A stretch of DNA of 64,000 nt from assembly GCA_964613395.1 (NCBI GenBank), contig CAZTGO010000010.1, positions 794 through 64,793 of the forward strand, given 5' to 3'. The translations under genes and the position numbers were made by a program. The notes under the pieces were generated by a model. The model did no database searches, was not told the origin of the DNA, and saw only the letters and a list, made by a program, of their open reading frames with translations. This DNA is from an uncultured Candidatus Poseidoniales archaeon. GTDB taxonomy: Archaea > Thermoplasmatota > Poseidoniia > Poseidoniales > Poseidoniaceae. Positions 33,958 to 46,448 of this stretch are shown piece by piece; position 1 is the stretch's first letter, and every line of letters begins with the position of its first letter.

Positions 33958-33974
33958 ACTTGAGCCTCATGGTG

Positions 33975-34730
33975 TTAGGAAAAAAGTGCATCGATGTCGT
34001 CGTCGTTGTCATCATCTGACTCTGTTAACCCCTGTTCTTCTTCAGGATACTCTTCTTTCACGACAAAGACCTCTTCTTCCTCGACTATTTCATCAGCATT
34101 TTCGATTGATGTATCACTCAATTCTGCTTCTGATTCGTTGTTGTCTGCAAAGATGTCGTCGTCATCTTCATCGGCGGCGAACATATCGTCTTCGTCGTCA
34201 TCAGCAAATAAATCGTCTTCATCCTCATCCGAAGCAAACATGTCATCTTGGTCCTCAAATTCTTGGTCTTCAGAGATAACCTCGCTATCTTCTTCATCAA
34301 ACGACGTCATGCTAGATGCGAAGAGGTCGTCATCGCCCTCTTCATCAACCCGAACATCCATACCGAAATCATCGACCACCTCGTTCAATAGACCTTTGCG
34401 GGAAAGATACATTGCTTGAGTTTTCGTATAGCGGTGTTTTACATCCGCTTTCGAAGGTTGAAAATCCCATGGCCAAACAATGATCAAATCATTTTCACGA
34501 ACCCATTGCCTACGTCGCATTTTTCCGGGGATTCTCGCCATTCGCTCTTCACCGTCTTCACAGAGTACAGTTACGCGACGACCACCGAGAATTTGTTTTG
34601 CGAGGGCGAACATTTCATTGATTCGCTTATCAGGCATTTTGACACGAATGTTGGTCTCACCTTGACCTCCATCCTCTTCAAGTCGTGCAAGTTCCTCTGC
34701 ATCGACTTTTTCTTCATGCCTTCTACCCAA
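33975..34730 (-). CDS. eif1a: Translation initiation factor aIF-1A with about 135-aa hyper-acidic C-terminal tail
   Basis: IRVKMPDKRINEMFALAKQILGGRRVTVLCEDGEERMARIPGKMRRRQWVRENDLIIVWPW...HRYTKTQ is the S1/OB core of a/eIF1A. The only start upstream of the conserved N-terminus is TTG at 34730. Confidence 0.9.
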   Translation of the reverse strand: MGRRHEEKVDAEELARLEEDGGQGETNIRVKMPDKRINEMFALAKQILGGRRVTVLCEDGEERMARIPGKMRRRQWVRENDLIIVWPWDFQPSKADVKHRYTKTQAMYLSRKGLLNEVVDDFGMDVRVDEEGDDDLFASSMTSFDEEDSEVISEDQEFEDQDDMFASDEDEDDLFADDDEDDMFAADEDDDDIFADNNESEAELSDTSIENADEIVEEEEVFVVKEEYPEEEQGLTESDDDNDDDIDALFS

Positions 34731-34802
34731 GAACGCTCACCATTTACTCCCAAACGACAACCCTTCTTGAAGCCATCACATGATTTACACGTGATTTTCA
34801 AG

Positions 34803-36533
34803 TTAGTTCTGCCATGAAGCCTGCAATGCATCGGCAGCACTTTGACAAACTTCGATGAGACCATCGGATGAAATACCAAAGTAAAGGGTTAGGGTTAGAC
34901 AGGCGATAATGGCAAGTCGAACAGAGTTACCCTGCGGCAGCAGTGTTTTTCCTTCTGGAGCGTCATGGAAGAACATAACAATACCCACTCTTAAGTAATA
35001 ATACACAGAAATTGCAGAGTTAATGACCATGACAAGTGCGAGATACCAAACCCAGTGAATGTCGGAGAATGATATTGACTCACCATTTGCTATTGCTGCC
35101 CCAATATCGCCTGCTGCAACCTTGACAATACCCATAATCACAAGGAGTTTCGACATAAAACCTGCGAGTGGAGGGACGCCGGCAAGTGAGAGCATGAAGA
35201 TGAACATGGTCACTGCTAAGAACGGTTCTCTCTTTGCTAGTCCGCCAAGTGATTCAAGTGTGTGGCCTCCTCCTTCTTGTTCAAGGATTGAGATGACCAA
35301 GAATGCACCCAGTTTGAAACAAACGAGGACGATCATGTGGAACATTAGGGCAGTGAGCACCATTGCGGCTGCTTCTGCCGCATCACCTGAAAGTGATTCA
35401 CTCCAATTCCATGCACCAACGGCTGTAAGTGCTGCAAGCATATATCCTGCATGAGCAACTGATGAATATGCGAGCATTCGTTTTGGGTTGGTTGAGCCAA
35501 GAGCAGCAAGATTACCCCAAGTCATTGTAACGACGGAAAAGACACCGAGTGCGACAAGCCAAACCGAACCATCATCCGACATATCAGGTGAAGCGAGGAC
35601 GAGAAGGATTCGAATTAAACCAACCATTCCCATCGCTTTGCTTGCGGTTGCAAGAACACCTGCAATCGGGCTCATGGAGCCTGCGTAAGCGTCAGGTGCT
35701 GCAAAGTGGAACGGCGCTGCACTGACCTTGAAGCCAAAGCCGACCAGGATGAAACCTAGGGCAATGAGTGGAAGTGCATCCAATCCATCTGCGGCAAATT
35801 TGTCACTCAAGACATCAAATTGAAGTGAGCCTGACCAAAGGTACAGGAGTGATAATCCGTACAAACCAACTCCCGAAGCGACCGAACCAACGATGAAATA
35901 CTTCATTCCGGCTTCTGTACCCTCTTTGCTCTCCTTGAGGAAACTGACCAAGATGTAAGTTGAGAATGACGCCAATTCAAGACCGATAAACAAGAAGAAC
36001 AAGTCCTGTGAAAGAGCTACGATGGACATGCCGATTGCTGTTGTCATCATAAGAATGTAAAAATCTGCTTGCCTTCGATTGTTATAGAGACCCTGAGCGG
36101 TTCGATCATCTGAGGAGTAGGGGGCGAGTCGATTCATTGATGCGATGCATGCAAGTGCAATAGCCCCAAAGAAAATCAATTCAAACAGTCGACTAAATTC
36201 GTTGATGGTGAGAAGGTTGTGACCTGAAGCGGATGTCACCTCAACCCTGTGCATACCACCGACAAATGACAAAAGTGTCAGGATGAAGGCTATTGAGGTA
36301 AAAACAGAGGCAAGAAGGCCTGGTAGGTGCGGATTTTGTTCAAATTTGTTTCGTTTTCCGCCAAAGAACCACGGTAGACGAACATTCGTGAGAGGTAGTC
36401 TAAATTTACCATCACCGAGATTTGGAACGATGATGAGCACGAGTAAACCCACAAAAATAGTCATCTCAGGAGCAAATGCTTCAATGAAGCCTTCACCAAA
36501 GGGTTGCATTGTTTTTGTTGATGCGTTGCTCAT
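34803..36533 (-). CDS. nuoN: NADH-quinone oxidoreductase subunit N
   Basis: The last gene of the nuo operon. An antiporter-like multi-TM protein with APFHFAAPDAYAGSMSPIAGVLATASK. The ATG at 36533 lies 1 nt after the nuoM stop. Confidence 0.9.
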   Translation of the reverse strand: MSNASTKTMQPFGEGFIEAFAPEMTIFVGLLVLIIVPNLGDGKFRLPLTNVRLPWFFGGKRNKFEQNPHLPGLLASVFTSIAFILTLLSFVGGMHRVEVTSASGHNLLTINEFSRLFELIFFGAIALACIASMNRLAPYSSDDRTAQGLYNNRRQADFYILMMTTAIGMSIVALSQDLFFLFIGLELASFSTYILVSFLKESKEGTEAGMKYFIVGSVASGVGLYGLSLLYLWSGSLQFDVLSDKFAADGLDALPLIALGFILVGFGFKVSAAPFHFAAPDAYAGSMSPIAGVLATASKAMGMVGLIRILLVLASPDMSDDGSVWLVALGVFSVVTMTWGNLAALGSTNPKRMLAYSSVAHAGYMLAALTAVGAWNWSESLSGDAAEAAAMVLTALMFHMIVLVCFKLGAFLVISILEQEGGGHTLESLGGLAKREPFLAVTMFIFMLSLAGVPPLAGFMSKLLVIMGIVKVAAGDIGAAIANGESISFSDIHWVWYLALVMVINSAISVYYYLRVGIVMFFHDAPEGKTLLPQGNSVRLAIIACLTLTLYFGISSDGLIEVCQSAADALQASWQN

Positions 36534-36534
36534 A

Positions 36535-38175
36535 TCAGGCACCTCCTTCAAATCCACCGAGGATAGGTAAGATCACGGAATCAAACATTTGGTTTGTCCA
36601 ATCGCTCATCATATCGAGGGCAATCCATGGCAAGATACCAAACAGGATGGTGAAAAGAGCGAGAATAAGCATTGCAAATTTCTCAGCGTTTGTGATATCT
36701 GGTATCGCATGGCCAGCCATTGAGGCAGGAGGTTGTGTCTCTTCTCCACCTTCGAAAATTGTACGTTGCATCGACCAGAGATAGTACGCTGCTGTGACGA
36801 CAAGAACGAGCAAAGGACCAGCCATCCACCAAATACTCCAACCTTCTGCGACGATGAAATACCAGAGTGCGATGAACATCATAATTTCAGCCACGAACCC
36901 TGCGAGAAGAGGCAATCCAAGTGAGGCCATCCAAGCGAACATCATTGAGGTAGCGAGCCAAGGCGAGTGTTTTGCCATGCCACGCATGGCACCAATCTCC
37001 ATCGAATGATAGTGATGCTTGAATGCACCACAAACAGCGAAGAGCATAGGACTGATGATGCCGTGTGCAAACATCATGAAAAGAGCTGCAGCCCACCCAA
37101 GTGGTTGCATGGTCGCAACACCGATGAGAATGACACCCATGTGGGATACTGATGAGTATGCGACCATTTTCTTAAGATTGGTTTGCCCAAGACAGACAAT
37201 CGCACCCCATACAAGTGACACCATACCAAACAACATGAGGGCGAGTTGGAAGGATTCCATTGCGTGCGGGAAAAGTGAAAACGGAAGTCGGAACATACCG
37301 TAAGCACCCATTTTCAACATAACACCAGCTAGCAACATCGATCCACCTGTTGGGGCTTGAACGTGTGCATCTGGTAACCAAGTGTGGAATGGCACAGACG
37401 GTAATTTGACGAGGAATCCGAGCATGAGCATAACGAAGAGGATCTTTTGAACACTTTCGCCTAAGAACCAACCGTTTGTGTTTGCAATCATCGATGCATC
37501 GATAATCGTTGGTATGTCAAACGACCTGTTGGTCATTGAACCAGCATAATTTAGCGGCGTGGTTGTATCTTGAAGGAAATACAATGTCACTAAGCCGAGC
37601 AACATGATAACTGAGGCTGAAAATGTGTAAATGAAGAACTTTTGAGATGCATATTTGCGATCATCTCCTCCCCATTTGAGGATGAGGAAAAACATCGGGA
37701 TGAGTGTTAATTCCCAGAACACATAGAACATAAACAAGTCGAGTGCTACGAAAACACCGATTAGTGCACCACCCATCATGAGAAGAAGCGGGAAGTATGT
37801 CGCTGCTGATTTCTCATGCCATGTCGCGATAATTGTCACTGGAAGAAGGAAGGTTGTGAGCCATACCATTGGGAATGAAAGAGCATCAAGGCCAACACTC
37901 CAGTAAATCCCTAATGATTCGATCCAAAGATAACGTTCTTGGAATTCATATGTGTTGAAATTGATACCTTCCCATCCTTCAAAATCACCAAAGTATTCGA
38001 AGAACATCCCTGTTGTTAATGCGAGCATAATCAGCGAAAAGACGAGCGAAGCCATTCGGATGATTGGTCCAACACGCTGTTTTTTCTCCTCTGTTAAGTT
38101 TGACACAAACATAAGTAAAATCAAACTTGATGCAAGTGGGAAAGCGATGAGAGGTAGAGAAATGTAATCGGTCAA
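36535..38175 (-). CDS. nuoM: NADH-quinone oxidoreductase subunit M
   Basis: PFHTWLPDAHVQAPTGGSMLLAGVMLKMG is the NuoM/ND4 signature. The TTG start overlaps the nuoL stop (TTGA). Confidence 0.9.
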   Translation of the reverse strand: MTDYISLPLIAFPLASSLILLMFVSNLTEEKKQRVGPIIRMASLVFSLIMLALTTGMFFEYFGDFEGWEGINFNTYEFQERYLWIESLGIYWSVGLDALSFPMVWLTTFLLPVTIIATWHEKSAATYFPLLLMMGGALIGVFVALDLFMFYVFWELTLIPMFFLILKWGGDDRKYASQKFFIYTFSASVIMLLGLVTLYFLQDTTTPLNYAGSMTNRSFDIPTIIDASMIANTNGWFLGESVQKILFVMLMLGFLVKLPSVPFHTWLPDAHVQAPTGGSMLLAGVMLKMGAYGMFRLPFSLFPHAMESFQLALMLFGMVSLVWGAIVCLGQTNLKKMVAYSSVSHMGVILIGVATMQPLGWAAALFMMFAHGIISPMLFAVCGAFKHHYHSMEIGAMRGMAKHSPWLATSMMFAWMASLGLPLLAGFVAEIMMFIALWYFIVAEGWSIWWMAGPLLVLVVTAAYYLWSMQRTIFEGGEETQPPASMAGHAIPDITNAEKFAMLILALFTILFGILPWIALDMMSDWTNQMFDSVILPILGGFEGGA

Positions 38176-40709
38176 GACATCACCCCCCAGATGAGAGCAA
38201 ACAACATCAGTGTACCAACCGCAGCCATGAGGATGTAATCTCGAGCAGAACCAGTTGTCAACTTTCTCAACGATGTCGAAGCGCTTTGAGATGTAGATTC
38301 AATGGTCTTGATAGCCCCGTCAATGAATTTGCTGTCTGCATGGGCTGCTTTGAGTGAAAACGCAGCCACAATTTTGAGCATCGCCATGTCGTAATAATGG
38401 TCGAAGTACAATCGATTCTGCAATGCTCTTGAAAGACTTGAGGTGGCAAAAGCTGAGTTGTCCCATGAATATCGTCCTTTGATTGCTGCATTGAGCATCA
38501 AGATTGGCGTAAACCACGGTTTTGCAGTTTCTCCCTCATCCAAAGCTCCACCGTAGAGTGAGAGTGCCAAACCAGGTCCAACGATTGCACCGAGGAATAT
38601 GGCGATGTATGTTAGGGTGAAGAAGAACATGTCATGGTTGGCAAACGCATGCCCAAGTTCGTATCCAATTCCTTCGAAAAGTCCCTTCTCCGACATGAGG
38701 GCGTATCCAGAATCTGGTGCCCAGTGGGTAAAGCCCATGCCTGCGAAGAGGATTCCGCCTAAGGTCACAAAAGTGAGCGTGAAAAGTGGTATTTTGATCC
38801 ATGTATTCGTTGGACCAACGTGTGCTGCAACTTCGTTGTTTGGTGAACCTGCAAAGGTCTTGAGCCACATTCTCGACATGTAAAATCCAGTCATGGCTGC
38901 ACCGAGGAGAACACATGCTGCAGGGAAGAAGAATCGTGGGTCTTCAAGGCCAACTCGCCATGCGTTTGCAATGATTCCTTCCTTGGACCAAAATCCACCG
39001 ATGAGAGGGAAACCCATGATTGAGAGTGAACCAACCAGCATAGCCGTAGCCGTAATTGGCATCTTGGAGGCTAAACCGCCCATATTTTCCATCGATTGTG
39101 CATCGAAGTGGTCGTCATGGTGGTCATCGTGTTCGTGTTCTTCGTAGGTTTTGCCCTTGATTTTTGCAAGAACAATATCAAGTTCTGGAACGTTGATTGT
39201 GCCGTTACCGTCAAGGTCAACAGCTTTCATGAGGTCACCCATTTCCCAAGGTGGAAGGTCAGCAACTTCTGTATTCTTTAGCGCAGTTTGGAATTCAAAC
39301 ATGTCGATTTCTCCCGAGCCATCGAGGTCAATGGTTTTGAAAAATTCAAATGTGCTCAATTTCTTTGAAGCCAAGTAATCCGATAACATGTAGAGTTCCT
39401 TGGGTGTGTGATGATGGTCGTCATGATGCAAGTGGTGATGTGCATGATGGACTTCATGGATTACCGCACCACTTGCCATGAACAGCATACCCTTTGCCAT
39501 TGCGTGATTGAAGAGATGGAAGAGTGCTGCACCAAAGGCGATGATGACGATGTAATGTGCGTCGTCGTCGTGATGCCAGTCAAGTGAGTTTGCTAGCCAC
39601 AATGCACAGCCAAGGCCCGTGAAGATGTAAGCAAGTTGCGACATGGTCGAATAGGCGAGTACTTTCTTGAGGTCCATCTGAACAAAAGCAATACTTGCTG
39701 CCATCACAGCGGTGATTCCACCAATGCTTGCAATAATGAAGGCGAGGTCAACAAGTTCACCATGCATTGCTTCAGCACCAAAGAATGGGAACATTCGAGC
39801 GACAAGGTAGAGGCCTGCGTTCACCATTGTTGCTGCGTGAATGAGAGCAGAGACCGGTGTTGGACCTTCCATTGCATCTGGGAGCCAGACATGCAGTGGG
39901 AATTGTGCAGATTTACCAACTGCCCCAATGAACATCATTCCAAGAGCCCACTGAAGAGAAGCAGGGTCAACGGCTGCGATATTATCTGAATCAAAGACAA
40001 CTGCATAATCAAGGGAGCCAAACAGATGCCAAAGCATAGCAAGACCGACCATCAGGAACACGTCACCAACACGGGTTGTGAGGAAAGCCTTCTTTGCGGC
40101 ATATGCAGCACTAGGCCGTTCGTAATAGAAGCCGATGAGCAAATACGAACAAAGACCCATTAATTCCCAGAAGATGAACAACCATAGGAATGAATCTGCG
40201 AGAATCATACCGAGCATTCCTGCACAAAAGAGCACGAATTCTGCATAGAATCGATGATTTCGATTATCGTTGATCGGGTCGGTGTTCATGTATCCGATCG
40301 CAAAGGTGTTGATGAGCAAGCAAAGGAAAGATGCGATGAACAACAACATGACGGTGATGTGGTCGATGTAGAGGCCAAATCCAAATGAAATTTCTGTTGT
40401 TGTTGCTCCGCCATTCCACATCGCAGAGGAGAACCAGTCGAACACGTGCAGGGCACTTTTACTGTCATCGCCATAGGCTCCGATGTAGTCTTTGATGAGC
40501 AAAAGAGCAAGGAGGAGGCTCGTAGCCATAGTAACGAGTGCGAAAATTCCACCTTCTTTGAACGTGGAAACCCAAACTTTGTTGCCATTGAACAATCTTC
40601 CGAACAGGAGAATGATTGGGAAGGCAATCATTGGAAGGAAGACAATGTATGGTGCAAATTCAATAACACTGCTGTGGATAGTTTCTGTTGTACCTGTTGA
40701 ACCCATCAT
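38172..40709 (-). CDS. nuoL: NADH-quinone oxidoreductase subunit L, enlarged (845 aa) by an EF-hand/His-rich insert
   Basis: FPLHVWLPDAMEGPTPVSALIHAATMV (NuoL/ND5 signature), ...ASGAVIHE [insert] ...MGGLASKMP, and a long C-terminal region with extra TMs. Confidence 0.9.
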   Translation of the reverse strand: MMGSTGTTETIHSSVIEFAPYIVFLPMIAFPIILLFGRLFNGNKVWVSTFKEGGIFALVTMATSLLLALLLIKDYIGAYGDDSKSALHVFDWFSSAMWNGGATTTEISFGFGLYIDHITVMLLFIASFLCLLINTFAIGYMNTDPINDNRNHRFYAEFVLFCAGMLGMILADSFLWLFIFWELMGLCSYLLIGFYYERPSAAYAAKKAFLTTRVGDVFLMVGLAMLWHLFGSLDYAVVFDSDNIAAVDPASLQWALGMMFIGAVGKSAQFPLHVWLPDAMEGPTPVSALIHAATMVNAGLYLVARMFPFFGAEAMHGELVDLAFIIASIGGITAVMAASIAFVQMDLKKVLAYSTMSQLAYIFTGLGCALWLANSLDWHHDDDAHYIVIIAFGAALFHLFNHAMAKGMLFMASGAVIHEVHHAHHHLHHDDHHHTPKELYMLSDYLASKKLSTFEFFKTIDLDGSGEIDMFEFQTALKNTEVADLPPWEMGDLMKAVDLDGNGTINVPELDIVLAKIKGKTYEEHEHDDHHDDHFDAQSMENMGGLASKMPITATAMLVGSLSIMGFPLIGGFWSKEGIIANAWRVGLEDPRFFFPAACVLLGAAMTGFYMSRMWLKTFAGSPNNEVAAHVGPTNTWIKIPLFTLTFVTLGGILFAGMGFTHWAPDSGYALMSEKGLFEGIGYELGHAFANHDMFFFTLTYIAIFLGAIVGPGLALSLYGGALDEGETAKPWFTPILMLNAAIKGRYSWDNSAFATSSLSRALQNRLYFDHYYDMAMLKIVAAFSLKAAHADSKFIDGAIKTIESTSQSASTSLRKLTTGSARDYILMAAVGTLMLFALIWGVMS

Positions 40710-40715
40710 ACCACC

Positions 40716-41018
40716 TCAATTCTTTAACACATTGACGTCGTCCAATGTGATTGATTCATGCTTTCCATACATGGCAAGGAAAATTGCGAGTCCGATAGCA
40801 ACCTCACTTGCGGCGATAGCAATAGCAAAGAGTGTGTAGACCCATCCCGTTGTGTCTCCGTGATGAACCGCTGCTGCTGCAAATTGGAGATTTGCTGCAT
40901 TGAGCATCAATTCGATGCACATGAGTACGATAATGGCATTCTTCCGGGTAAATGCACCTGCAAGACCAATGATGAAAAGAAGTGCGGCGAGGCCTGATAC
41001 CCATGATGGATCGATCAC
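40716..41018 (-). CDS. nuoK: NADH-quinone oxidoreductase subunit K
   Basis: 100 aa with 3 TM and LMCIELMLNAANL (the conserved Glu-containing helix). The GTG start overlaps the upstream stop. Confidence 0.9.
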   Translation of the reverse strand: MIDPSWVSGLAALLFIIGLAGAFTRKNAIIVLMCIELMLNAANLQFAAAAVHHGDTTGWVYTLFAIAIAASEVAIGLAIFLAMYGKHESITLDDVNVLKN

Positions 41019-41284
41019 TCTTCCTCACCTCCAAATTCCCATAGGAGATTTTCCATTCGTTCATCTCGAACGAGGTAAGCAGCACCAATCATTGCAACTG
41101 CCATCAAAATACCGAGTGCTAGCAACGGCAAACCCCATTCGTTGAGGAGATCATCGGCTAACATCGATGTTGTAGGTGCGTCGTCACTTCCTTCTTGCCA
41201 AACTGCGTCGGCACTTACGGTAGCGATTAAAATAAAACCTAGGGCCAAAAGACCCATTCGGGTCATGAGAGAAAGAAATTTCAT
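41015..41284 (-). CDS. nuoJ: NADH-quinone oxidoreductase subunit J, C-terminal part (J2)
   Basis: 89 aa with 2 TM, and LLALGILMAVAMIGAAYLVR resembles the last NuoJ helix. The ATGA overlap with J1 and its position between J1 and K support the call. Confidence 0.7.
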   Translation of the reverse strand: MKFLSLMTRMGLLALGFILIATVSADAVWQEGSDDAPTTSMLADDLLNEWGLPLLALGILMAVAMIGAAYLVRDERMENLLWEFGGEEE

Positions 41285-41556
41285 TCAAAATCCTCCTCTA
41301 GAATTTGTCTTCTTGTCAGCATGATACCGAACAAGACGACAAGTCCAACACTCGCTAGATACACGAGAATTTGGATTGCAGCAAGGAACTCCGCACCCAT
41401 AAGGATGAATATTCCTGACACTGCCATGAAACAGAAGATGAGCGAGAGCATGGAATGGGCAACGCGTTGGGCGTAAATGAGACCGAGTGCACCCACAATT
41501 GTGATGGTGGCAAACAAAAAGAAGACTGCAGATTCAACTGTGGTTGCTATGTCCAT
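41281..41556 (-). CDS. nuoJ: NADH-quinone oxidoreductase subunit J, N-terminal part (J1)
   Basis: MDIATTVESAVFFLFATITIVGALGLIYAQRVAHSMLSLIF...AEFLAAIQILVYLASVGLVVLF is the NuoJ/ND6 pattern. The track ORF's 55-aa extension overlaps nuoI and was rejected. Confidence 0.8.
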   Translation of the reverse strand: MDIATTVESAVFFLFATITIVGALGLIYAQRVAHSMLSLIFCFMAVSGIFILMGAEFLAAIQILVYLASVGLVVLFGIMLTRRQILEEDFE

Positions 41557-41557
41557 C

Positions 41558-42520
41558 TCAGTTCCCCTCCTTTGCTGCCTTCTTTTCACGCTTGGTGCGT
41601 TCTTTGATAGCACGCTTTGCAAGTTCTTCGTCAACCGCTTCTTGATGAACAGAGGGGAGGACCCGTGTTCGACTTGCGTCGAACCATAGATCTTGGCGAG
41701 TAAATCCTGACATTCCATCATATTCGTTGGTCATGAAAAACGAAGTAAAGCCGCATGCTTCCATGCACAAACCACAAAACATGCATCGGCCAATGTCGAT
41801 TCGTCCTGAAACGATTTGATCATCTGCCGTAAGAAGGTCGGTTTGCTCAACCACTTCTTCGGAACCTGTATCATTCCAACGAATTGTTGCGGTCGATGAG
41901 GAGAGGTCGAGGACTTCGCCGAAACGCCATTCTTGTGGAACATCATCGTGGGCTGTGACGTGATTAAAACCGAGTTGAGCTTCTGCAACATCGTCGAGTT
42001 TCTTTGCTGCAAATTTACCAACCTCGAGGTCAACACCGTATCCGCCATATTCTCCTTCTGCACTGTCGAGAACATCGACTCTGAGTTCGGTTGTCATGTG
42101 CAAACAGTCATTTGGACAAATGTTGACACACATTTTACAAGCAGTACAAGTTTCCCAAATGACACCAATTCGACCATTGTAATTGCCTGGAACGAAGAGC
42201 CATGGTTCCATGTCTTCAAGTCGCTCGTAAGGATATTGAACTGTTTGAGGTTTCCAGAGTGTCGGTTTGAGGTCTGATGTCACTCTGTCCGGTGCGAATT
42301 CTTGTTTCTCAACATCGTTCATCACAGCAGATGCTTTCGCACGTGCCCGACTACCGTCATCGAGGAATTCTGGGTGTGAAGTGTTATGATATGCCCCCAT
42401 CTTCTTTCCGAATCGCTTCCCTAAGAACGGAAATGTTCGCAATGCGGTAATTAGTGTAATCTTAAATGGGTACCAAAAAAGGTTTCTGAAATTTGGTCTT
42501 GCATGTGGGTGCGTTGGCAT
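41558..42520 (-). CDS. nuoI: NADH-quinone oxidoreductase subunit I (2x[4Fe-4S]), enlarged (320 aa)
   Basis: CTACKMCVNICPNDC and CMFCGLCMEACG. These two ferredoxin-type motifs are separated by about 110 aa instead of the usual about 30. Confidence 0.85.
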   Translation of the reverse strand: MPTHPHARPNFRNLFWYPFKITLITALRTFPFLGKRFGKKMGAYHNTSHPEFLDDGSRARAKASAVMNDVEKQEFAPDRVTSDLKPTLWKPQTVQYPYERLEDMEPWLFVPGNYNGRIGVIWETCTACKMCVNICPNDCLHMTTELRVDVLDSAEGEYGGYGVDLEVGKFAAKKLDDVAEAQLGFNHVTAHDDVPQEWRFGEVLDLSSSTATIRWNDTGSEEVVEQTDLLTADDQIVSGRIDIGRCMFCGLCMEACGFTSFFMTNEYDGMSGFTRQDLWFDASRTRVLPSVHQEAVDEELAKRAIKERTKREKKAAKEGN

Positions 42521-42529
42521 TTGTTCACC

Positions 42530-44041
42530 TCACTCCGTTCCTGGGACAACTGTCCCTGCTGGTTCCACCGTGTAGACATGGAACATCCGTTCTTCATTGG
42601 CTGATTTACCTTCATCATTGAGATAGACGAGGAACAATCCTGTCCAAAAGAGAGTTGTGAGAATTGGCACAAGCATTGGGATACCAAACAGGTCCCAAGC
42701 CATGCCGCCCGATACAGAATCATCCATGCCGCTAGCGTCAAAGAAGTACAATCGGTACACCATAGCTAGAATGACTTGGAGGACTGCGAGTGGCAGGAGC
42801 ATTCGCCATCCAAACTCTAGAATTTGGTCTGTACGAATACGGGCGAGGGCAAATCGTGCCCATACGAAAACGATGAGGAACACGAGCCATGACTTGATGA
42901 GTGTTACACCCGCACCCGGAATTAATTGATATGCAGCACCAATGCCCAGCAGTTCAATACTTCCGATTGTGCCGTGGAATGGAAGATGCCATCCTCCGAG
43001 GAAGAAATGCGTGAACAAGAAACAGGCAGCATAGGTTCGAATGTATTCTGCCATAAACAGCATACCGAATCGCATGCCGCCATATTCAGTCCACCAGCCT
43101 TCAACAAGTTCGGCTTCAGCCTCCGGCATGTCGAATGGAACCCTTTCGACCTCTGCAATCATTGTAACAAGGAATAGTGCGGCACCGAGTGGCATGAGGA
43201 AAATGTTCCAAACACCCGCTGAGTGTTGGAAGTGAATGCTTTCGATGATATTGAAGGTGCCAGTGAGAATTGCGACTGAAAGAAGTGTCAAGAGAAGAGG
43301 AATCTCATAAGCGGTGAGTTGAGCAGCAGATCGAATGCCGCCAATTAACGTGTATTTGTTGTTGGACGACCAACCAGCGAAAAATACACCAATTGGTGCA
43401 ATGCCAAAGATTGCAATGGCGTAGAGTATTGAAAGGTCTGGGTTCGTTGCGTAAATGCCGCTCGATAGTGGAATCATACCCAAAATCAACAGAGTCGACG
43501 ATACGATAAGGAACGGTGAAACCTCGAAGATGAGTCTATCGGCTCTTTGAGGCACCATGTGTTCTTTCACAAGGAATTTCATACCATCTGCTACATTCTG
43601 GAAGAATCCAGGGAGAATCGTGAAACCCATCCATGAACGATTGTTCACTCGGTCGACGGTGGCGAATTTTTCATCTCGATTTCCGAATTTTTTGTTGAGC
43701 CAACTGTGGACTGCTCCGATTGGCTTTCCGAGGCCGAAGGGCAACATGTTCCACCATTCACCTGCAGTTGTACCATTTTCTCCAACCCAAAGTGAACGAA
43801 GAGCGGTTGTTGCTCCGTACCTGTCCTGCATTCGAGCAACAGCTTTTCGCTCAATCCACAGGATAGCAAATTGCGAAAAGAAGAGCATCAAGAAGACGAC
43901 ATTCACAACGAGGAATGTGCCCAAACCAAACGATAGTGCATCTGCATTATCTTCGAGAGCCGTGCCTTCAACTGCTGAATGAACAATATCTTCAACAAGA
44001 CCGGATAGAAATTTTCGGAGGTCGTATGCGTCATCCACCAT
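42530..44041 (-). CDS. nuoH: NADH-quinone oxidoreductase subunit H, enlarged (503 aa)
   Basis: WIERKAVARMQDRYG, GWSSNNKYTLIGGIRSAAQLTAYEIP and ERVPFDMPEAEAELVEGWWTEYGGMRFG. Confidence 0.9.
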   Translation of the reverse strand: MVDDAYDLRKFLSGLVEDIVHSAVEGTALEDNADALSFGLGTFLVVNVVFLMLFFSQFAILWIERKAVARMQDRYGATTALRSLWVGENGTTAGEWWNMLPFGLGKPIGAVHSWLNKKFGNRDEKFATVDRVNNRSWMGFTILPGFFQNVADGMKFLVKEHMVPQRADRLIFEVSPFLIVSSTLLILGMIPLSSGIYATNPDLSILYAIAIFGIAPIGVFFAGWSSNNKYTLIGGIRSAAQLTAYEIPLLLTLLSVAILTGTFNIIESIHFQHSAGVWNIFLMPLGAALFLVTMIAEVERVPFDMPEAEAELVEGWWTEYGGMRFGMLFMAEYIRTYAACFLFTHFFLGGWHLPFHGTIGSIELLGIGAAYQLIPGAGVTLIKSWLVFLIVFVWARFALARIRTDQILEFGWRMLLPLAVLQVILAMVYRLYFFDASGMDDSVSGGMAWDLFGIPMLVPILTTLFWTGLFLVYLNDEGKSANEERMFHVYTVEPAGTVVPGTE

Positions 44042-44047
44042 ATCACC

Positions 44048-45187
44048 TCAGCGGTCTGTCTCCCCGATACATGGGTCAAAACTACCCATAATCGCTGGAA
44101 TGTCAGCGACTTTGTAACCAATCATTGTTTTTGCAACATATGGAATTGTGATGAACATCGGTGAACGAATCGACAACCGATAGGGGTTCTTTCCGCGGCC
44201 ATCGCCGCCACCTTGAATGTAGAATTGGGAGGCACCACGAGTACATTCGTAGTTGCTGAACCCTGTGGCACCCTCCGGGGCACGTGTTGGGGCCTTGGCA
44301 ATGATCATTTCATCACCGTTGGCATAATTCGTGTTTTTCCCGCCTGGAATTTTCTCAATCGCATCGAGAATCATGCGGCATGATTGGCGCATTTCTTCCA
44401 TTCTGACTCTGTATCTGTCGTAGCAGTCCGCACCTTTGACCGAGGTTGGTTTCTCGACTGCTGGTTCCCAGTCAACTTGATCATACACAGAATAAGGATG
44501 GGCCCATCGAACGTCGTAATTGACGCCTGCTGCCCGAATGTTTGGTCCGGTAACACCTGCATTGACCATGTCCTCAGCCTGTGCATAACCTACACCTTGA
44601 AGTCGCACAAGCCAAATTGTCGATTCATCGAGCATCATCTCATATTCATCGATTCGCTTCTCAAAAAGTTTGATTTTCGCAATCAGTCTGTCCGCAAACC
44701 CAACTGGGATATCACGCTTGACACCACCGACACGAGGATAATTGTAATGCATTCTCGAACCACCTAGTTCCTGAAGCAAGTCAAGGAACATTTCTCTGTC
44801 TCGCATGCACCATGTCATGAGCGTCAGGCTGCCGATGTCCGGACCATATGCACCCAACCACATGAGGTGGGAGGCAAGACGTTGACATTCTGCAGCAATA
44901 AGTCGGATATATTCTGCTCGTTCGGGGACTTCAACTTCGAGTAAATCTTCCGCAGCATAGATGTACGAATTCGCCCATGTCATCGCACTCACATAACAAA
45001 GACGGTCGCAGTAAGGCGTGACTTGTGTGAAATCTCTTGATTCACAAATCTTCTCTACGCCTCGGTGAATGTATCCTAACTCAGCTTCTGTGTCGACAAC
45101 AGTTTCACCGTCGACTTTGACACGAAGCGTCCACAACCCATGGGTCATCGGATGCTGAGGGCCCATTGTAATCCACATTTGTGCCAT
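44048..45187 (-). CDS. nuoD: NADH-quinone oxidoreductase subunit D
   Basis: MGPQHPMTHGLWTL...YCDRLCYVS...C-terminal SFDPCIGETDR. Confidence 0.95.
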   Translation of the reverse strand: MAQMWITMGPQHPMTHGLWTLRVKVDGETVVDTEAELGYIHRGVEKICESRDFTQVTPYCDRLCYVSAMTWANSYIYAAEDLLEVEVPERAEYIRLIAAECQRLASHLMWLGAYGPDIGSLTLMTWCMRDREMFLDLLQELGGSRMHYNYPRVGGVKRDIPVGFADRLIAKIKLFEKRIDEYEMMLDESTIWLVRLQGVGYAQAEDMVNAGVTGPNIRAAGVNYDVRWAHPYSVYDQVDWEPAVEKPTSVKGADCYDRYRVRMEEMRQSCRMILDAIEKIPGGKNTNYANGDEMIIAKAPTRAPEGATGFSNYECTRGASQFYIQGGGDGRGKNPYRLSIRSPMFITIPYVAKTMIGYKVADIPAIMGSFDPCIGETDR

Positions 45188-45195
45188 GATATCAC

Positions 45196-45849
45196 CTACT
45201 TTACGCGGCCCTCATCCGCTGGTTTTCGAGCAAATCCTTGTGCATCATCATACATTTCATTGTAGTCATGATATCGGATTTTGTGTTGTTTTTGGAGTGG
45301 GTGAAACCCTTCAGGGCTGTCGTGTGGGTTGAGGACCCGGTGCATATTCTCATGACCCTCGAATTGAATTCCGACCAAATCCCACGTTTCCTTCTCATTC
45401 CAATCTGCCCCGACCCAAATATTTTGCACGCTGGGTACTGAGGGTGTGTCGTTATTCTCGAGAGGAATCAGGACTTCGAATTCCATTGGTACATCGTCAC
45501 CTTTGAGGGATTCAGCAACATGAACACAGTGTGTGTGGGGTGCTTGATTTTTCACAGGTTGACGCATGAAATGATAGGCAACTTCCCAACCTCGATCCGA
45601 AGGTCCTTCTGGGAAATGAGTTCCTGTAATCATTGAGCAATGGTTCACATCCAAATCAAATCGTAGCCATTTTGCCAGGGCAGACCAATGTTGTGGCGGT
45701 GTTGTGATTCGAACAAATGCCATCTTGTGAGCGTTCGAATGATGTTCGACCGACGATGTGATGCCAGTGCCACCAAATCGCTTCTCGATTCGGGCAACGC
45801 AATCGTTTGCAGCTGCAACATTTTGTTCAAGTGTGATGGCCATTCCCAT
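45196..45849 (-). CDS. nuoC: NADH-quinone oxidoreductase subunit C
   Basis: 217 aa lying between nuoB and nuoD, with WVGADWNEKETWDLVGIQFEGH...HPLQK typical of the 30-kDa subunit. Confidence 0.9.
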   Translation of the reverse strand: MGMAITLEQNVAAANDCVARIEKRFGGTGITSSVEHHSNAHKMAFVRITTPPQHWSALAKWLRFDLDVNHCSMITGTHFPEGPSDRGWEVAYHFMRQPVKNQAPHTHCVHVAESLKGDDVPMEFEVLIPLENNDTPSVPSVQNIWVGADWNEKETWDLVGIQFEGHENMHRVLNPHDSPEGFHPLQKQHKIRYHDYNEMYDDAQGFARKPADEGRVK

Positions 45850-45851
45850 GT

Positions 45852-46448
45852 TCAGTCCTCCCCTACAATCACTGGCTTCTCGCTCTTACGGCCTGAACTA
45901 GGCGCTGCACCAATTCGAATGATTTTCTCACGAAGCAAACCGAAACCGTCGATGAGTGCTTCGGGTCGCGGGGGGCATCCTGGGATGTAAACATCGACTG
46001 GGATGACTGTGTCGACACCTTCGAGAATATTGTAAGACTGGAAGTAAGGGCCACCGGAGATGGCACATTCGCCCATAGCGATGCAGTATTTTGGCTCTGG
46101 CATTTGTTCCCAAAGTCGAACGATTTTGTCTGCAAATTTCTTTGAAATTGGTCCGTTGACGAGAAGGACGTCAGATTGACGAGGTGATGAACGGAAAAGA
46201 ACTCCGAAACGGTCTCCATCGAAACGGGGGGTTGCTGCTGCTGCCATCTCGATTGCACAGCATTTGATACCTAGGTGAAGTGTGAACAACGATTTTCGAC
46301 CAGCCCAATTGAAAAATCGACCGGCGAGCACGCTCAAAAATTGCTTGATTTTCGTTGCTTTGAGGGCCTCATCGGTCACATCTCCAACGACTTCAAGCAA
46401 TGCTTTACTGTTGAATGCAGCATAATTCTCTTCTTGCGTTCCCATCAT
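45852..46448 (-). CDS. nuoB: NADH-quinone oxidoreductase subunit B (N2 cluster)
   Basis: GIKCCAIEM, MGECAISGGPY and YIPGCPPRPEALIDG. Confidence 0.95.
   Translation of the reverse strand: MMGTQEENYAAFNSKALLEVVGDVTDEALKATKIKQFLSVLAGRFFNWAGRKSLFTLHLGIKCCAIEMAAAATPRFDGDRFGVLFRSSPRQSDVLLVNGPISKKFADKIVRLWEQMPEPKYCIAMGECAISGGPYFQSYNILEGVDTVIPVDVYIPGCPPRPEALIDGFGLLREKIIRIGAAPSSGRKSEKPVIVGED

What the first reader, a model, noticed from the sequence alone, without database searches (positions are those of the whole stretch)
39099..39455. Canonical EF-hand pair flanked by poly-His/Asp tracts inserted into a loop of complex I subunit NuoL
Seen in sequence: in standard NuoL the conserved blocks ASGAVIH and MGGL..KMP are separated by roughly ten residues. 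Here about 118 aa are inserted between them. The insert reads HEVHHAHHHLHHDDHHH, then two helix-loop-helix units with textbook 12-residue Ca2+ loops, then EEHEHDDHHDDH. The loops are DLDGSGEIDMFE (nt 39294-39329) and DLDGNGTINVPE (nt 39183-39218). Both satisfy positions 1 D, 3 D, 5 S/N, 6 G, 8 I and 12 E. A further WHHDDDAHY patch lies at nt 39552-39578. His codons alternate between cat and cac, so this is not a simple slippage repeat. I am not aware of EF-hand or His-rich metal-binding modules inside the proton-pumping antiporter-like subunit. The insert suggests Ca2+ or transition-metal sensing or gating of the respiratory complex, or a docking site; this is inference.
Basis: partly seen in the sequence, partly recalled or inferred. 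Interest (0 to 1): 0.75.

Follow-up and report, generated by a model that had tools for sequence, protein, structure and literature searches.

The report
Calmodulin-like calcium module inside archaeal NuoL
Marine Group II (Poseidonia) archaea carry a conserved calmodulin-like calcium-binding module in a cytoplasmic loop of the complex I subunit NuoL, and relatives carry the same module on their ATP synthase and other membrane proteins, which suggests calcium-linked control or organisation of energy conversion in very abundant ocean microbes.

Summary
NuoL (window 38172-40709, minus strand, 845 aa) carries 119 extra residues between ASGAVIH and MGGL..KMP.

The core of the insert is an 88-aa EF-hand pair:
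- It scores above the Pfam gathering cut-offs.
- AlphaFold2 gives pLDDT above 90, and the model matches calmodulin lobes.
- Both loops are canonical.
- It is under purifying selection (dN/dS 0.02-0.09).
- It occurs in about 70 protein clusters and 22 species genomes, so it is not a chimera.

First, the His/Asp tracts are not part of the insert. They are an older, conserved loop found in all Poseidoniaceae NuoL, and similar tracts occur in distant NuoL. The cassette was spliced into the middle of that loop.

Second, the cassette is a Poseidoniales-wide module with several hosts:
- A-type ATPase subunit I, also between His-rich tracts;
- the C-terminus of NuoJ;
- an unknown polytopic membrane protein.

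Each placement appears to be on the cytoplasmic side. This favours a tethered Ca2+-dependent sensor or docking module over a gate specific to the NuoL channel. I found no description in the searched literature. Ca2+ binding and function remain untested.

The parts
38172..40709 (-). nuoL gene (845 aa), the distal antiporter-like subunit of an 11-subunit complex I-type enzyme
   Evidence: ORF. TIGR01974 NDH_I_L scores 430.9 bits, above its cut-off of 407.5. Proton_antipo_M and Proton_antipo_N match, with Proton_antipo_M split around the insert. PDB hits are NdhF, Nqo12 and NuoL.
39492..39494 (-). Lys406, the conserved TM11 lysine in HAMAKGMLF, about 12 residues before the insert
   Evidence: K406 is invariant among 16 sequences and present in at least 90% of 58. 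The motif aligns with HAYFKAMLF of NdhF. Its equivalence to E. coli K342 and T. thermophilus K329 is from my own knowledge. PMC5938582 names Lys-329L as taking up a proton from the N-side.
39408..39458 (-). N-terminal His/Asp tract HEVHHAHHHLHHDDHHH (aa 418-434), an ancestral and conserved continuation of TM11
   Evidence: H418, E419, H421-H426, L427 and H428 are invariant in 58 Poseidoniaceae NuoL, with or without EF-hands. dN is about 0 while pS is 0.6-0.95. pLDDT is below 50. Similar tracts occur in distant NuoL.
39144..39407 (-). 88-aa EF-hand cassette (aa 435-522), made of one extra N-terminal helix and two helix-loop-helix units
   Evidence: Pfam EF-hand families. Calmodulin lobe match at E about 1e-12. 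AF2 pLDDT above 90. Foldseek top hits are all EF-hand proteins, e.g. 4bw8_A at rmsd 1.6 A over 74 columns. dN/dS is 0.023-0.088.
39366..39401 (-). Conserved amphipathic N-terminal helix of the cassette (aa 437-448, KELYMLSDYLAS; family consensus ELxMLxxYL)
   Evidence: Helix H437-448 in the whole-protein model and H19-30 in the cassette model. L5, L8 and L12 of the cassette are invariant across hosts.
39294..39329 (-). EF loop 1, DLDGSGEIDMFE (aa 461-472)
   Evidence: PS00018 match. Positions 3, 5, 6 and 12 are invariant, and 1 and 9 are at least 90% conserved, across cassettes from all hosts.
39246..39260 (-). Inter-EF linker DLPPW (aa 484-488), the signature of this cassette family
   Evidence: PP is invariant and W is at least 90% conserved. 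The motif was used in the DNA pattern that recovered 120 Poseidoniales loci.
39183..39218 (-). EF loop 2, DLDGNGTINVPE (aa 498-509)
   Evidence: PS00018 match. Positions 1, 6 and 12 are invariant across the family. It aligns with calmodulin loop 2, DADGNGTIDFPE.
39108..39143 (-). C-terminal His/Asp/Glu tract EEHEHDDHHDDH (aa 523-534), the other half of the split ancestral loop
   Evidence: In NuoL without EF-hands the two halves are contiguous, e.g. HHDDHGDDHGDDHDDHH. pLDDT is below 50.
39057..39107 (-). FDAQSMENMGGLASKMP (aa 535-551), the conserved end of the TM11-TM12 loop and start of TM12
   Evidence: Mostly invariant in 58 sequences. Aligns with AQDMRYMGGLRKYMP of NdhF. The motif FD[AP]QDM.NMGGL appears in distant NuoL.
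38979..38984 (-). Lys576-Glu577 in GGFWSKEG, the conserved charged pair of the broken helix TM12
   Evidence: K576 is invariant and E577 is at least 90% conserved. Aligns with GFWSKDE of NdhF. The equivalence to E. coli K399/D400 is from my own knowledge.
39552..39578 (-). WHHDDDAHY patch (aa 378-386) in the TM10-TM11 loop, predicted to lie on the opposite (outer) face
   Evidence: Coordinates. Helix boundaries. The main EF clade has a longer loop here, WHEYLADGTKNPDYYVNH. The side follows from helix parity.
34803..46448 (-). Complex I operon: nuoB, C, D, H, I, J1, J2, K, L, M-like and N-like. No nuoEFG was seen among these genes.
   Evidence: Pfam: Oxidored_q6, Complex1_30kDa, Complex1_49kDa, NADHdh, Fer4, Oxidored_q3 (twice), Oxidored_q2 and Proton_antipo_M (twice).

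Best explanation
What it is (shown). This is an 88-residue calmodulin-lobe-like EF-hand pair. It has an extra conserved N-terminal helix and two canonical 12-residue Ca2+ loops. It is inserted into the middle of an older, conserved and probably disordered His/Asp-rich loop. That loop joins TM11, which carries Lys406, to the broken helix TM12, which carries Lys576/Glu577. The host is NuoL of the 11-subunit complex I-type enzyme of Poseidonia (Marine Group IIa) archaea.

The cassette is not specific to NuoL. It is a Poseidoniales-specific, domain-shuffled module. In other lineages it sits in three other hosts:
- at the junction between the cytoplasmic N-domain and the membrane domain of A-type ATPase subunit I, again between His-rich tracts;
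- near the C-terminus of NuoJ;
- at the C-terminus of an unknown polytopic membrane protein.

How it most likely works (inferred). The loop faces the cytoplasm. The cassette binds two Ca2+ ions. It acts as a Ca2+-dependent sensor or docking lobe, tethered by flexible linkers to the cytoplasmic surface of energy-converting membrane complexes. On Ca2+ binding it would open a hydrophobic cleft, as a calmodulin lobe does. That cleft would then release its own N-terminal helix or capture a partner helix, and so change the association or activity of the complex. It probably does not mechanically gate the NuoL proton path.

The His/Asp tract is a separate and older feature. It most likely acts as a proton-collecting or buffering surface, or as a divalent-metal site, at the N-side end of TM11. 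This too is inference.

Confidence. I put identity and conservation at about 0.95, the cytoplasmic side at about 0.85, Ca2+ binding at about 0.85, and the sensor/docking role at about 0.45. The overall figure reflects the full statement.
For: EF-hand identity:
- Pfam scores are above the cut-offs.
- There are two PS00018 matches in the whole window, both in the insert.
- phmmer against the PDB hits calmodulin N-lobes at E about 1e-12.
- The cassette AF2 model has pLDDT above 90 over about 80 residues, with a bridge residue (DSSP 'E') in each Ca2+ loop.
- All Foldseek top hits are EF-hand proteins, with rmsd 1.6-2.9 A.

Conservation and selection:
- About 70 NuoL clusters of 821-872 aa, 71-98% identical, carry EF-hand Pfam hits.
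- 22 GTDB species genomes carry the cassette in NuoL.
- The Ca2+-ligand positions are the most conserved columns of the cassette.
- dN/dS is 0.023-0.088.

Ancestral loop:
- Sister NuoL without EF-hands (745-760 aa) have a contiguous H/D tract.
- Distant NuoL have similar tracts.

Promiscuity of the cassette:
- Among the 120 loci, the hosts are ATPase subunit I (29), the unknown membrane protein (about 55), NuoL (22) and NuoJ (7).
- Cassettes are 64-77% identical within a named host class (58% in the unknown membrane protein) and about 50% between classes.

Cytoplasmic side:
- PMC5938582 places the N-side input channel at TM7b and the P-side output channel at TM12b. TM12 therefore starts on the N-side.
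- In ATPase subunit I the cassette lies between residues that align with the solved cytoplasmic N-domain (3rrk_A) and residues that align with the membrane domain of T. thermophilus subunit I.
- Some hosts carry C-terminal SAP/HhH-type tails.

Flexible tether: the H/D tracts have pLDDT below 50 in both models.
Against: - No metal binding was measured.
- The whole-NuoL model is poor (mean pLDDT 58). The position of the cassette relative to helix HL and to neighbouring subunits is therefore unknown.
- The membrane side rests on homology and literature. My positive-inside count was not decisive.
- No partner or target helix was identified.
- The insertion lies directly between two helices that carry key charged residues, so some allosteric effect on pumping cannot be excluded.
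- Whether a single cell carries the cassette on several complexes at once is only partly known. ATPase subunit I and the unknown membrane protein co-occur in 10 assemblies, but NuoL never co-occurred with another host in a truncated sample (Fisher p = 0.066).
Confidence: 0.55

Rival explanations
1. Direct Ca2+ or metal gating of the NuoL proton channel. Ca2+ binding to the EF lobe, or metal binding to the H/D tracts, would pull on TM11 and TM12 and switch proton translocation on or off.
For: The insert lies exactly between TM11 (Lys406) and the broken helix TM12 (Lys576/Glu577). PMC5938582 implicates the TM11 lysine (Lys-329 in T. thermophilus) in N-side proton uptake. The first 10 residues of the H/D tract are invariant and are modelled as a continuation of the TM11 helix.
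Against: The cassette is separated from both helices by tracts of about 15 residues that are predicted to be disordered. The same cassette occurs near a free C-terminus (NuoJ and the unknown membrane protein) and at a domain junction of ATPase subunit I, where it cannot act on a NuoL-type channel. Sister lineages have the same NuoL without it.
Confidence: 0.15
2. Local cytoplasmic Ca2+ buffer or scavenger. Abundant membrane complexes would carry high-affinity Ca2+ sites to keep free Ca2+ low at the inner membrane surface of cells living in about 10 mM external Ca2+, with no signalling output.
For: Both loops are canonical and the ligand positions are conserved. The cassette sits on several abundant membrane proteins regardless of their function. 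Parvalbumin-type buffers are among the fold matches.
Against: The hydrophobic core and cleft positions, an extra amphipathic helix and the DLPPW linker are conserved across hosts. Ligand geometry alone would not require this. Two sites per complex give little buffering capacity (inference).
Confidence: 0.12
3. Extracytoplasmic, constitutively Ca2+-loaded structural domain of the dockerin or cell-surface type. It would stabilise or anchor the complex on the outer face in seawater.
For: There is a weak Dockerin_1 hit (17.0 bits, below the cut-off of 22.9). Prokaryotic EF-hand-like domains are often extracellular (my own knowledge). My K/R count over the loops was not decisive.
Against: Established topology puts the start of TM12 on the N-side. 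In ATPase subunit I the cassette adjoins the cytoplasmic N-domain. SAP/HhH-type tails follow it in other hosts.
Confidence: 0.07
4. Functionless passenger. A domain was shuffled into permissive low-complexity loops, for example by recombination within His/Asp-coding repeats, and is merely tolerated.
For: It always lies in or next to low-complexity acidic or His-rich linkers. Close relatives do well without it.
Against: dN/dS is 0.02-0.09. Ligand positions are invariant across hosts that are about 50% identical. The cassette is retained throughout a genus-level clade.
Confidence: 0.05
5. Assembly chimera or frameshift artefact at 39.1-39.5 kb.
For: None found.
Against: There is one uninterrupted ORF. 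The same architecture occurs in about 70 clusters from ENA, NCBI, JGI and Logan and in 22 independent genome assemblies. L108 matches window 33184-41161 at 90% nucleotide identity across the insert.
Confidence: 0.01

Closest known systems
Calmodulin N-lobe and the EF-hand pair domain (Pfam PF13499, clan EF_hand)
   Same: It has two canonical 12-residue loops that start 37 residues apart, and the predicted helix-loop-helix pair fold. It is 31-34% identical to calmodulin lobes. Loop 2 (DLDGNGTINVPE) is close to calmodulin loop 2 (DADGNGTIDFPE).
   Different: It is a single lobe, not four EF-hands. It is embedded in a polytopic membrane protein. It has an extra conserved N-terminal helix and a DLPPW linker that define a Poseidoniales-specific subfamily.
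NuoL / Nqo12 / ND5 / NdhF (TIGR01974), the distal antiporter-like subunit of complex I
   Same: The conserved TM5 Glu, TM7 Lys, TM11 Lys and TM12 Lys/Glu motifs are present, as are the C-terminal long helix plus last TM helix and the operon context.
   Different: The TM11-TM12 loop has 119 residues rather than about 8-10. No solved or described NuoL has a folded domain at this site in what I searched.
The same cassette in Poseidoniales A-type ATPase subunit I, in NuoJ and in an unknown polytopic membrane protein
   Same: The cassettes are about 50% identical. They share the N-helix, both loops and the DLPPW linker. All are placed near the membrane on the face predicted to be cytoplasmic. The subunit I copies also lie between His-rich tracts.
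   Different: The host and attachment differ: a domain junction or a C-terminal region rather than an inter-helix loop. In the sample, genomes titled 'Poseidonia sp.' carry it only in NuoL (11 of 11 loci, p = 6e-10). MAG CMA05 has it in subunit I but not in NuoL.
Ca2+-dependent alternative (type II) NAD(P)H dehydrogenases of plants and fungi (NDB1, NDE1), which have an inserted EF-hand (my own knowledge, not tested here)
   Same: An EF-hand motif is inserted into a respiratory NADH-oxidising enzyme, giving a precedent for Ca2+ control of electron input.
   Different: Those are single-subunit flavoenzymes that do not pump and are unrelated to complex I. The EF-hand sits in a soluble domain and the enzymes are eukaryotic.
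EF-hand-regulated membrane redox and transport proteins: NOX5/DUOX/Rboh, the mitochondrial carriers Aralar and SCaMC, and MICU-MCU (my own knowledge)
   Same: An EF-hand lobe is tethered to a membrane energy or transport protein. It acts by Ca2+-dependent docking onto another part of the protein.
   Different: All are eukaryotic. The EF domains are terminal rather than inside a transmembrane loop, and none is in a proton-pumping antiporter-like subunit.
His-rich cytoplasmic loops of ZIP/CDF metal transporters, and the His/carboxylate proton-collecting antennae of cytochrome oxidase and reaction centres (my own knowledge)
   Same: These are clusters of His with Asp/Glu on the cytoplasmic surface next to an ion pathway. 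The composition is conserved while codons turn over.
   Different: No such role has been shown for NuoL. Here the tract is split by a folded domain.

Membership tests
EF-hand pair (PROSITE PS00018; Pfam PF13499, PF00036, PF13202, PF13405) | 12-residue loop consensus (positions 1 D, 3 D/N/S, 5, 6 G, 8 hydrophobic, 12 D/E) | tested here: met
   A PS00018 regex gives two matches in the window, both in the insert.
EF-hand pair (PROSITE PS00018; Pfam PF13499, PF00036, PF13202, PF13405) | Profile HMM score above the curated gathering threshold | tested here: met
   Insert alone: EF-hand_7 45.3 against 30, EF-hand_1 41.9 against 25.4, EF-hand_5 41.7 against 25.9, EF-hand_6 36.6 against 25.
EF-hand pair (PROSITE PS00018; Pfam PF13499, PF00036, PF13202, PF13405) | Paired helix-loop-helix fold | tested here: met
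   The AF2 cassette model has pLDDT above 90, helices H35-42, H52-61, H69-79 and H89-110, and a single bridge residue (DSSP 'E') in each Ca2+ loop. All Foldseek top hits are calmodulin, centrin, calcyphosine or parvalbumin, with rmsd 1.6-2.9 A. This is a prediction, not a solved structure.
EF-hand pair (PROSITE PS00018; Pfam PF13499, PF00036, PF13202, PF13405) | Actual Ca2+ binding | not testable with these tools
   Needs ITC, 45Ca overlay or Tb3+ luminescence on the expressed cassette.
NuoL (complex I subunit L, TIGR01974) | Family HMM above the curated cut-off | tested here: met
   TIGR01974 scores 430.9 against 407.5. The equivalog NF005141 scores 453.2, below its cut-off of 556, because the match is split by the insert.
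NuoL (complex I subunit L, TIGR01974) | Conserved charged residues of the antiporter-like fold (TM5 Glu, TM7 Lys, TM11 Lys, TM12 Lys/Glu) | tested here: met
   E182, K266 and K576 are invariant, and K406 and E577 are at least 90% conserved. Their motifs align with NdhF. The residue equivalences to E. coli are from my own knowledge.
NuoL (complex I subunit L, TIGR01974) | C-terminal extension with a long lateral helix (HL) and a final TM helix | tested here: inconclusive
   The model shows a 49-residue helix (767-815) followed by helix 823-844, but pLDDT is below 50 there. There is a weak alignment of aa 748-834 to the C-terminus of NdhF.
NuoL (complex I subunit L, TIGR01974) | Location in a nuo operon between nuoK and nuoM | tested here: met
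   Pfam of the neighbours: Oxidored_q2 upstream and Proton_antipo_M downstream.
Calmodulin proper | Free-standing protein of about 148 aa with four EF-hands in two lobes | tested here: not met
   There is only one lobe, and it is embedded in an 845-aa membrane protein. It resembles calmodulin but is not a member.
Dockerin type I | Pfam Dockerin_1 above the gathering threshold | tested here: not met
   17.0 bits against a cut-off of 22.9, with no stretch passing on its own.
Poseidoniales EF-hand cassette (defined here) | N-helix ELxMLxxYL, loop 1 D.D.SG..D..E, linker [DN]LPPW and loop 2 D.[DN].[DN]G.[IL][ND].PE, in about 88 aa without gaps | tested here: met
   The window cassette aligns without gaps to copies from subunit I, NuoJ and the unknown membrane protein. 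It matches the degenerate DNA pattern that returned 120 loci, nearly all from Poseidoniales.

The most novel reading that the evidence does not exclude
The most abundant planktonic archaea may have wired one calmodulin-like Ca2+ switch onto the cytoplasmic face of their chemiosmotic machinery. Depending on the lineage, it sits on complex I (NuoL or NuoJ), on the A-type ATP synthase stator subunit I, or on an unknown transporter-like protein. Cytoplasmic Ca2+ would then co-ordinately regulate these complexes or physically couple them, for example through Ca2+-dependent docking to a common partner or to each other. This would be a prokaryotic counterpart of Ca2+ control of oxidative phosphorylation in mitochondria. 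The adjoining His/Asp tracts would serve as proton antennae.
Probability: 0.15. Interest if true: 0.85.

Novelty: new variant of a known kind. Interest (0 to 1): 0.62.

Why it matters
Complex I core membrane subunits are among the most conserved proteins known. I found no report of a folded Ca2+-binding domain inside one.

The insert is conserved, under selection, and belongs to a cassette family that also sits on the ATP synthase stator subunit. That points to an unrecognised link between Ca2+ and energy conversion in Marine Group II archaea. These organisms are uncultured but globally abundant.

The cassette is small and soluble, so its metal binding and partners can be tested directly without culturing the organism.

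The finding also gives a clear example of domain shuffling into low-complexity loops of membrane proteins. In addition, it flags a widespread, unstudied His-rich motif at the cytoplasmic end of NuoL TM11.

Tried and rejected
1. Whole-NuoL AlphaFold2 with 58 close homologues gave mean pLDDT 58. That is too poor to place the cassette relative to helix HL or to read the membrane side. Only its secondary structure was used.

2. The positive-inside K/R count with strict helix boundaries was not decisive: 3 K/R in 46 residues against 3 in 117. The side was taken from the literature and from the subunit I context.

3. A profile search of the 5.8-billion-protein set with the cassette alignment returned only fragments of 151 aa or fewer. 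These served for the AF2 alignment but not for host architecture.

A hand-built degenerate DNA pattern replaced it.

5. Identifying the unknown polytopic host failed. The TM part of P0128 has no Pfam or PDB hit, full-length P0128 gave no relevant NCBIfam hit, and its neighbours in L071 are uninformative.

6. I looked for EF-hand inserts in distant NuoL representatives (P0159, P0175, P0229). None had an EF-hand Pfam hit. Clustering at 50% identity can hide such members.

7. Literature searches found no prior description. These covered EF-hand with NuoL, Poseidoniales or Marine Group II with EF-hand, and complex I accessory subunits with EF-hand. PMC9258230 notes only that Poseidoniales have lineage-specific families with calcium-binding domains.

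8. HEVHH matches the zincin HExxH pattern, but other NuoL with His-rich loops do not conserve it. I rejected it as meaningful.


Full report
**Observation**

The minus-strand ORF at 38172-40709 encodes an 845-aa protein. NuoL is its best-scoring family:
- NCBIfam TIGR01974 scores 430.9 bits against a cut-off of 407.5.
- Pfam Proton_antipo_N and Proton_antipo_M both match, with Proton_antipo_M split in two.

The gene lies in a nuoB-C-D-H-I-J1-J2-K-L-M-N operon, and no nuoEFG was seen among these genes.

- The insert is aa 419-537, nt 39099-39455.
- The EF loops are at nt 39294-39329 and 39183-39218.
- WHHDDDAHY is at nt 39552-39578.
- His codons in the insert are 8 CAT and 7 CAC.

Against solved NdhF, Nqo12 and NuoL structures the insert replaces about 8 residues. 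Query residue 422 aligns with residue 369 of 6hum_F, and query residue 537 with residue 378.

**Is it an EF-hand pair, and is it real?**

Several lines of evidence agree that it is an EF-hand pair:
- The PS00018 pattern matches only twice in the six-frame translation of the whole 64-kb window, both times in this insert.
- The insert alone passes the Pfam gathering cut-offs for EF-hand_7, EF-hand_1, EF-hand_5 and EF-hand_6.
- It aligns with calmodulin N-lobes at E about 1e-12.
- An AlphaFold2 model of the insert, built on 43 diverse cassette sequences, has pLDDT above 90 for about 80 residues. It shows an extra N-terminal helix and then two helix-loop-helix units, with a bridge residue in each Ca2+ loop. 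The His/Asp tracts score below 50.
- All top Foldseek matches in the PDB are EF-hand proteins. Examples are calmodulin 4bw8_A (rmsd 1.6 A over 74 columns) and calcyphosine 3e3r_B (1.7 A over 81 columns), both at probability 1.00.

It is also not an assembly artefact:
- About 70 protein clusters of 821-872 aa, 71-98% identical and drawn from several archives, have the same architecture. Some are named 'Poseidonia sp.'.
- 22 GTDB species genomes carry it in NuoL.
- Locus L108 matches window 33184-41161 at 90% nucleotide identity, straight through the insert.

Selection is purifying. For the cassette, dN/dS is 0.023 against L108 and 0.088 against L089. For the rest of NuoL it is 0.006 and 0.022. 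Across cassettes from all hosts, the Ca2+-ligand positions are the most conserved columns.

**Anatomy: what is old and what is new**

I aligned NuoL with EF-hands against the closest NuoL without them (745-760 aa, also Poseidoniaceae). The His/Asp tract turns out not to be part of the insert.
- Every member has HEVHHAHHHLH..., then a variable run of H/D/G, then HDDxFDAQSMENMGGL.
- The residues H418, E419, H421-H426, L427 and H428 are invariant in 58 sequences.
- Between close relatives the tracts have dN of about 0 despite heavy synonymous change (pS 0.6-0.95).
- In proteins with EF-hands, an 88-aa cassette sits in the middle of this tract.

More distant NuoL representatives also have His-rich loops at this site, for example HGVEHGHHHVHEHHGHDDDHH...FDPQDMRNMGGL. 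The His-rich loop is therefore a widespread and older NuoL feature. Only the EF-hand cassette is new to this lineage.

In a tree built without the insert, the window lineage (with P0001) branches deeply, near the split between the main EF clade and the clade without EF-hands.

**The cassette is promiscuous**

I searched the 1.84-billion-representative library with aa 390-603. It found the same module, 47-64% identical, in proteins that are not NuoL.

I then scanned GTDB species genomes with a degenerate DNA pattern for the second half of the cassette. Nearly all are titled Poseidoniales, Poseidoniaceae, Poseidonia or Thalassarchaeaceae.

Classifying the host ORFs gave the following:

| Host | Loci | Position of the cassette |
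|---|---|---|
| Unknown polytopic membrane protein (about 655-730 aa) | about 55 | C-terminal, sometimes followed by a SAP tail |
| A-type ATPase subunit I | 29 | Junction of the N-domain and the membrane domain |
| NuoL | 22 | TM11-TM12 loop |
| C-terminal half of NuoJ | 7 | Just before the terminal GGEEE/EEE |
| Unclassified | a few | |

Further observations on the hosts:
- In subunit I the cassette is again bracketed by His-rich tracts, for example NDHHHHDDDHHDDAHGKH - cassette - STAEHHDDAQPP.
- All 120 best relatives of that subunit I are 710-786 aa and carry EF-hand Pfam hits.
- Cassettes are 64-77% identical within a named host class (58% in the unknown membrane protein) and about 50% between classes. 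This suggests old, separate insertions followed by vertical descent.
- All 11 loci titled 'Poseidonia sp.' are NuoL hosts, against 11 of 109 other loci (p = 6e-10).
- No NuoL-bearing assembly showed a second host, whereas 10 assemblies had both subunit I and the unknown membrane protein (p = 0.066; the sample was truncated).
- MAG CMA05 has subunit I with the cassette (P0420) and NuoL without it (P0097).

**Which side of the membrane?**

PMC5938582 places the N-side input channel of antiporter-like subunits at TM7b and the P-side output channel at TM12b. TM12 therefore starts on the N-side, and the TM11-TM12 loop is cytoplasmic.

Two independent observations agree:
- In subunit I the cassette lies between residues that align with the solved cytoplasmic N-domain (3rrk_A, query aa 6-297) and residues that align with the membrane domain of T. 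thermophilus subunit I (query aa 412-772).
- Some hosts end in SAP- or HhH-type tails.

My K/R count over the loops was not decisive, and the whole-NuoL model is too poor to help (mean pLDDT 58). I rate the cytoplasmic location at about 0.85. By helix parity, the WHHDDDAHY patch in the TM10-TM11 loop is then on the outer face.

**Mechanism**

Shown:
- The module is a conserved and selected calmodulin-lobe-like domain with two canonical Ca2+ loops.
- It is tethered by low-confidence, probably flexible linkers.
- It lies 12 residues after the TM11 lysine and 39 residues before the TM12 Lys/Glu pair.

Inferred:
- It binds two Ca2+ ions in the cytoplasm.
- It works as a Ca2+-dependent sensor or docking lobe.
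- The hydrophobic positions that line the target cleft of calmodulin are kept as L/I/V/M (alignment).
- An extra amphipathic helix (ELxMLxxYL) is conserved in every host. It may act as a built-in target that is released, or replaced by a partner helix, when Ca2+ binds.

The same cassette works from a free C-terminus, from a domain junction and from an inter-helix loop, on different complexes. I therefore favour a host-independent role, such as recruitment, association or local sensing at the membrane surface, over mechanical gating of the NuoL proton path.

The His/Asp tract is a separate and older element. Given its position at the N-side end of TM11, and its recurrence beside the cassette in the proton-translocating subunit I, a role as a proton-collecting or buffering surface or as a Zn/Ni site is plausible. 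This is untested.

**Rivals**

- Direct gating: 0.15.
- Ca2+ buffering: 0.12.
- An outside-facing structural domain: 0.07.
- A functionless passenger: 0.05.
- An artefact: 0.01.

The evidence for and against each is given in the Rival explanations section.

**Comparison with what is known, and novelty**

The module is a member of the EF-hand pair family. Pattern, profile and predicted fold were all tested and met, while Ca2+ binding could not be tested. It is not calmodulin, because it is a single embedded lobe. It is not a dockerin either, because that score is below threshold.

The host is a NuoL. The closest functional precedents, all from my own knowledge, are:
- the EF-hand-bearing, Ca2+-dependent type II NAD(P)H dehydrogenases of plants and fungi;
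- EF-hand-regulated membrane proteins such as NOX5 and the Aralar/SCaMC carriers.

None of these is a complex I core subunit, and all are eukaryotic.

Five literature searches found no description of an EF-hand in NuoL or in any core complex I subunit. One paper notes only that Poseidoniales have lineage-specific families with calcium-binding domains (PMC9258230).

I classify the finding as a new variant of a known kind and score its interest at 0.62. The architecture is surprising and conserved, it occurs in globally abundant archaea, and it extends to the ATP synthase. Its function, however, is inferred only.

Noticed in passing
window 41558-42520 (-): NuoI is 320 aa, about twice the usual size. 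Its two 4Fe-4S cysteine motifs (about aa 125-139 and 246-258) are about 105 residues apart, and there is an N-terminal extension of about 100 aa. This is another lineage-specific expansion of a core complex I subunit.
   Followed up: no
window 42530-44041 (-): NuoH is 503 aa. The Pfam NADHdh match covers only aa 145-426, so there are large N- and C-terminal extensions.
   Followed up: no
window 41015-41721 (-); loci L004, L007, L020, L041, L060, L098, L103: NuoJ is split into two ORFs. In other Poseidoniales, including a Thalassarchaeaceae MAG, the same EF-hand cassette is inserted in the second half, between ...LENLxWNE and the terminal GGEEE/EEE. The window's NuoJ2 lacks it.
   Followed up: partly
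L078 (CM001443.1), L010, L017, L052 and 25 other loci; P0135; P0345-P0463: A-type ATPase subunit I of many Poseidoniaceae (770-786 aa) carries the same EF-hand cassette, flanked by His-rich tracts. It sits at the junction of the cytoplasmic N-domain and the membrane domain. Some of these proteins are seen on dozens of contigs, including Tara Oceans data.
   Followed up: partly
L071 5205-7184 (+); P0128; about 55 loci: The commonest cassette host is a polytopic membrane protein of about 655-730 aa. Its transmembrane part has no Pfam, NCBIfam or PDB sequence match. Some copies end in a SAP/HeH-type tail. Its function is unknown.
   Followed up: partly
P0143, P0159, P0175, P0185, P0194, P0219, P0224 (TM11-TM12 loop): Many distant NuoL representatives have long His/Asp/Glu-rich loops at the same site (consensus about HG.EHGHHH.HEH...FDPQDM.NMGGL). 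This is a widespread motif whose function I do not know.
   Followed up: partly
L009, L013, L019, L021, L024, L004, L041, L060 (C-termini of cassette hosts): Many proteins with a C-terminal cassette end in the tripeptide EEE, and the window's NuoJ2 ends in GGEEE. This may be a conserved C-terminal signal.
   Followed up: no
L023, L057, L092, L110: Four loci that carry the cassette come from MAGs titled as bacteria (Flavobacteriales, Verrucomicrobiales, Salipiger, Salinimicrobium). Their host ORFs are of Poseidoniales type, so these contigs are probably mis-binned.
   Followed up: no
P0155 aa 199-344; L098: Some NuoJ2-cassette proteins carry a further C-terminal domain. It resembles the C-terminal extension of alphaproteobacterial NuoE (NF009040, 72 bits) and has an HhH-like motif.
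   Followed up: no
window 39552-39578 (-), and alignment A1 columns 395-412: The TM10-TM11 loop (predicted outer face) reads WHHDDDAHY in the window lineage and in the clade without EF-hands. In most of the main EF clade it is expanded to WHEYLADGTKNPDYYVNH, a second loop difference that largely tracks the clade.
   Followed up: no
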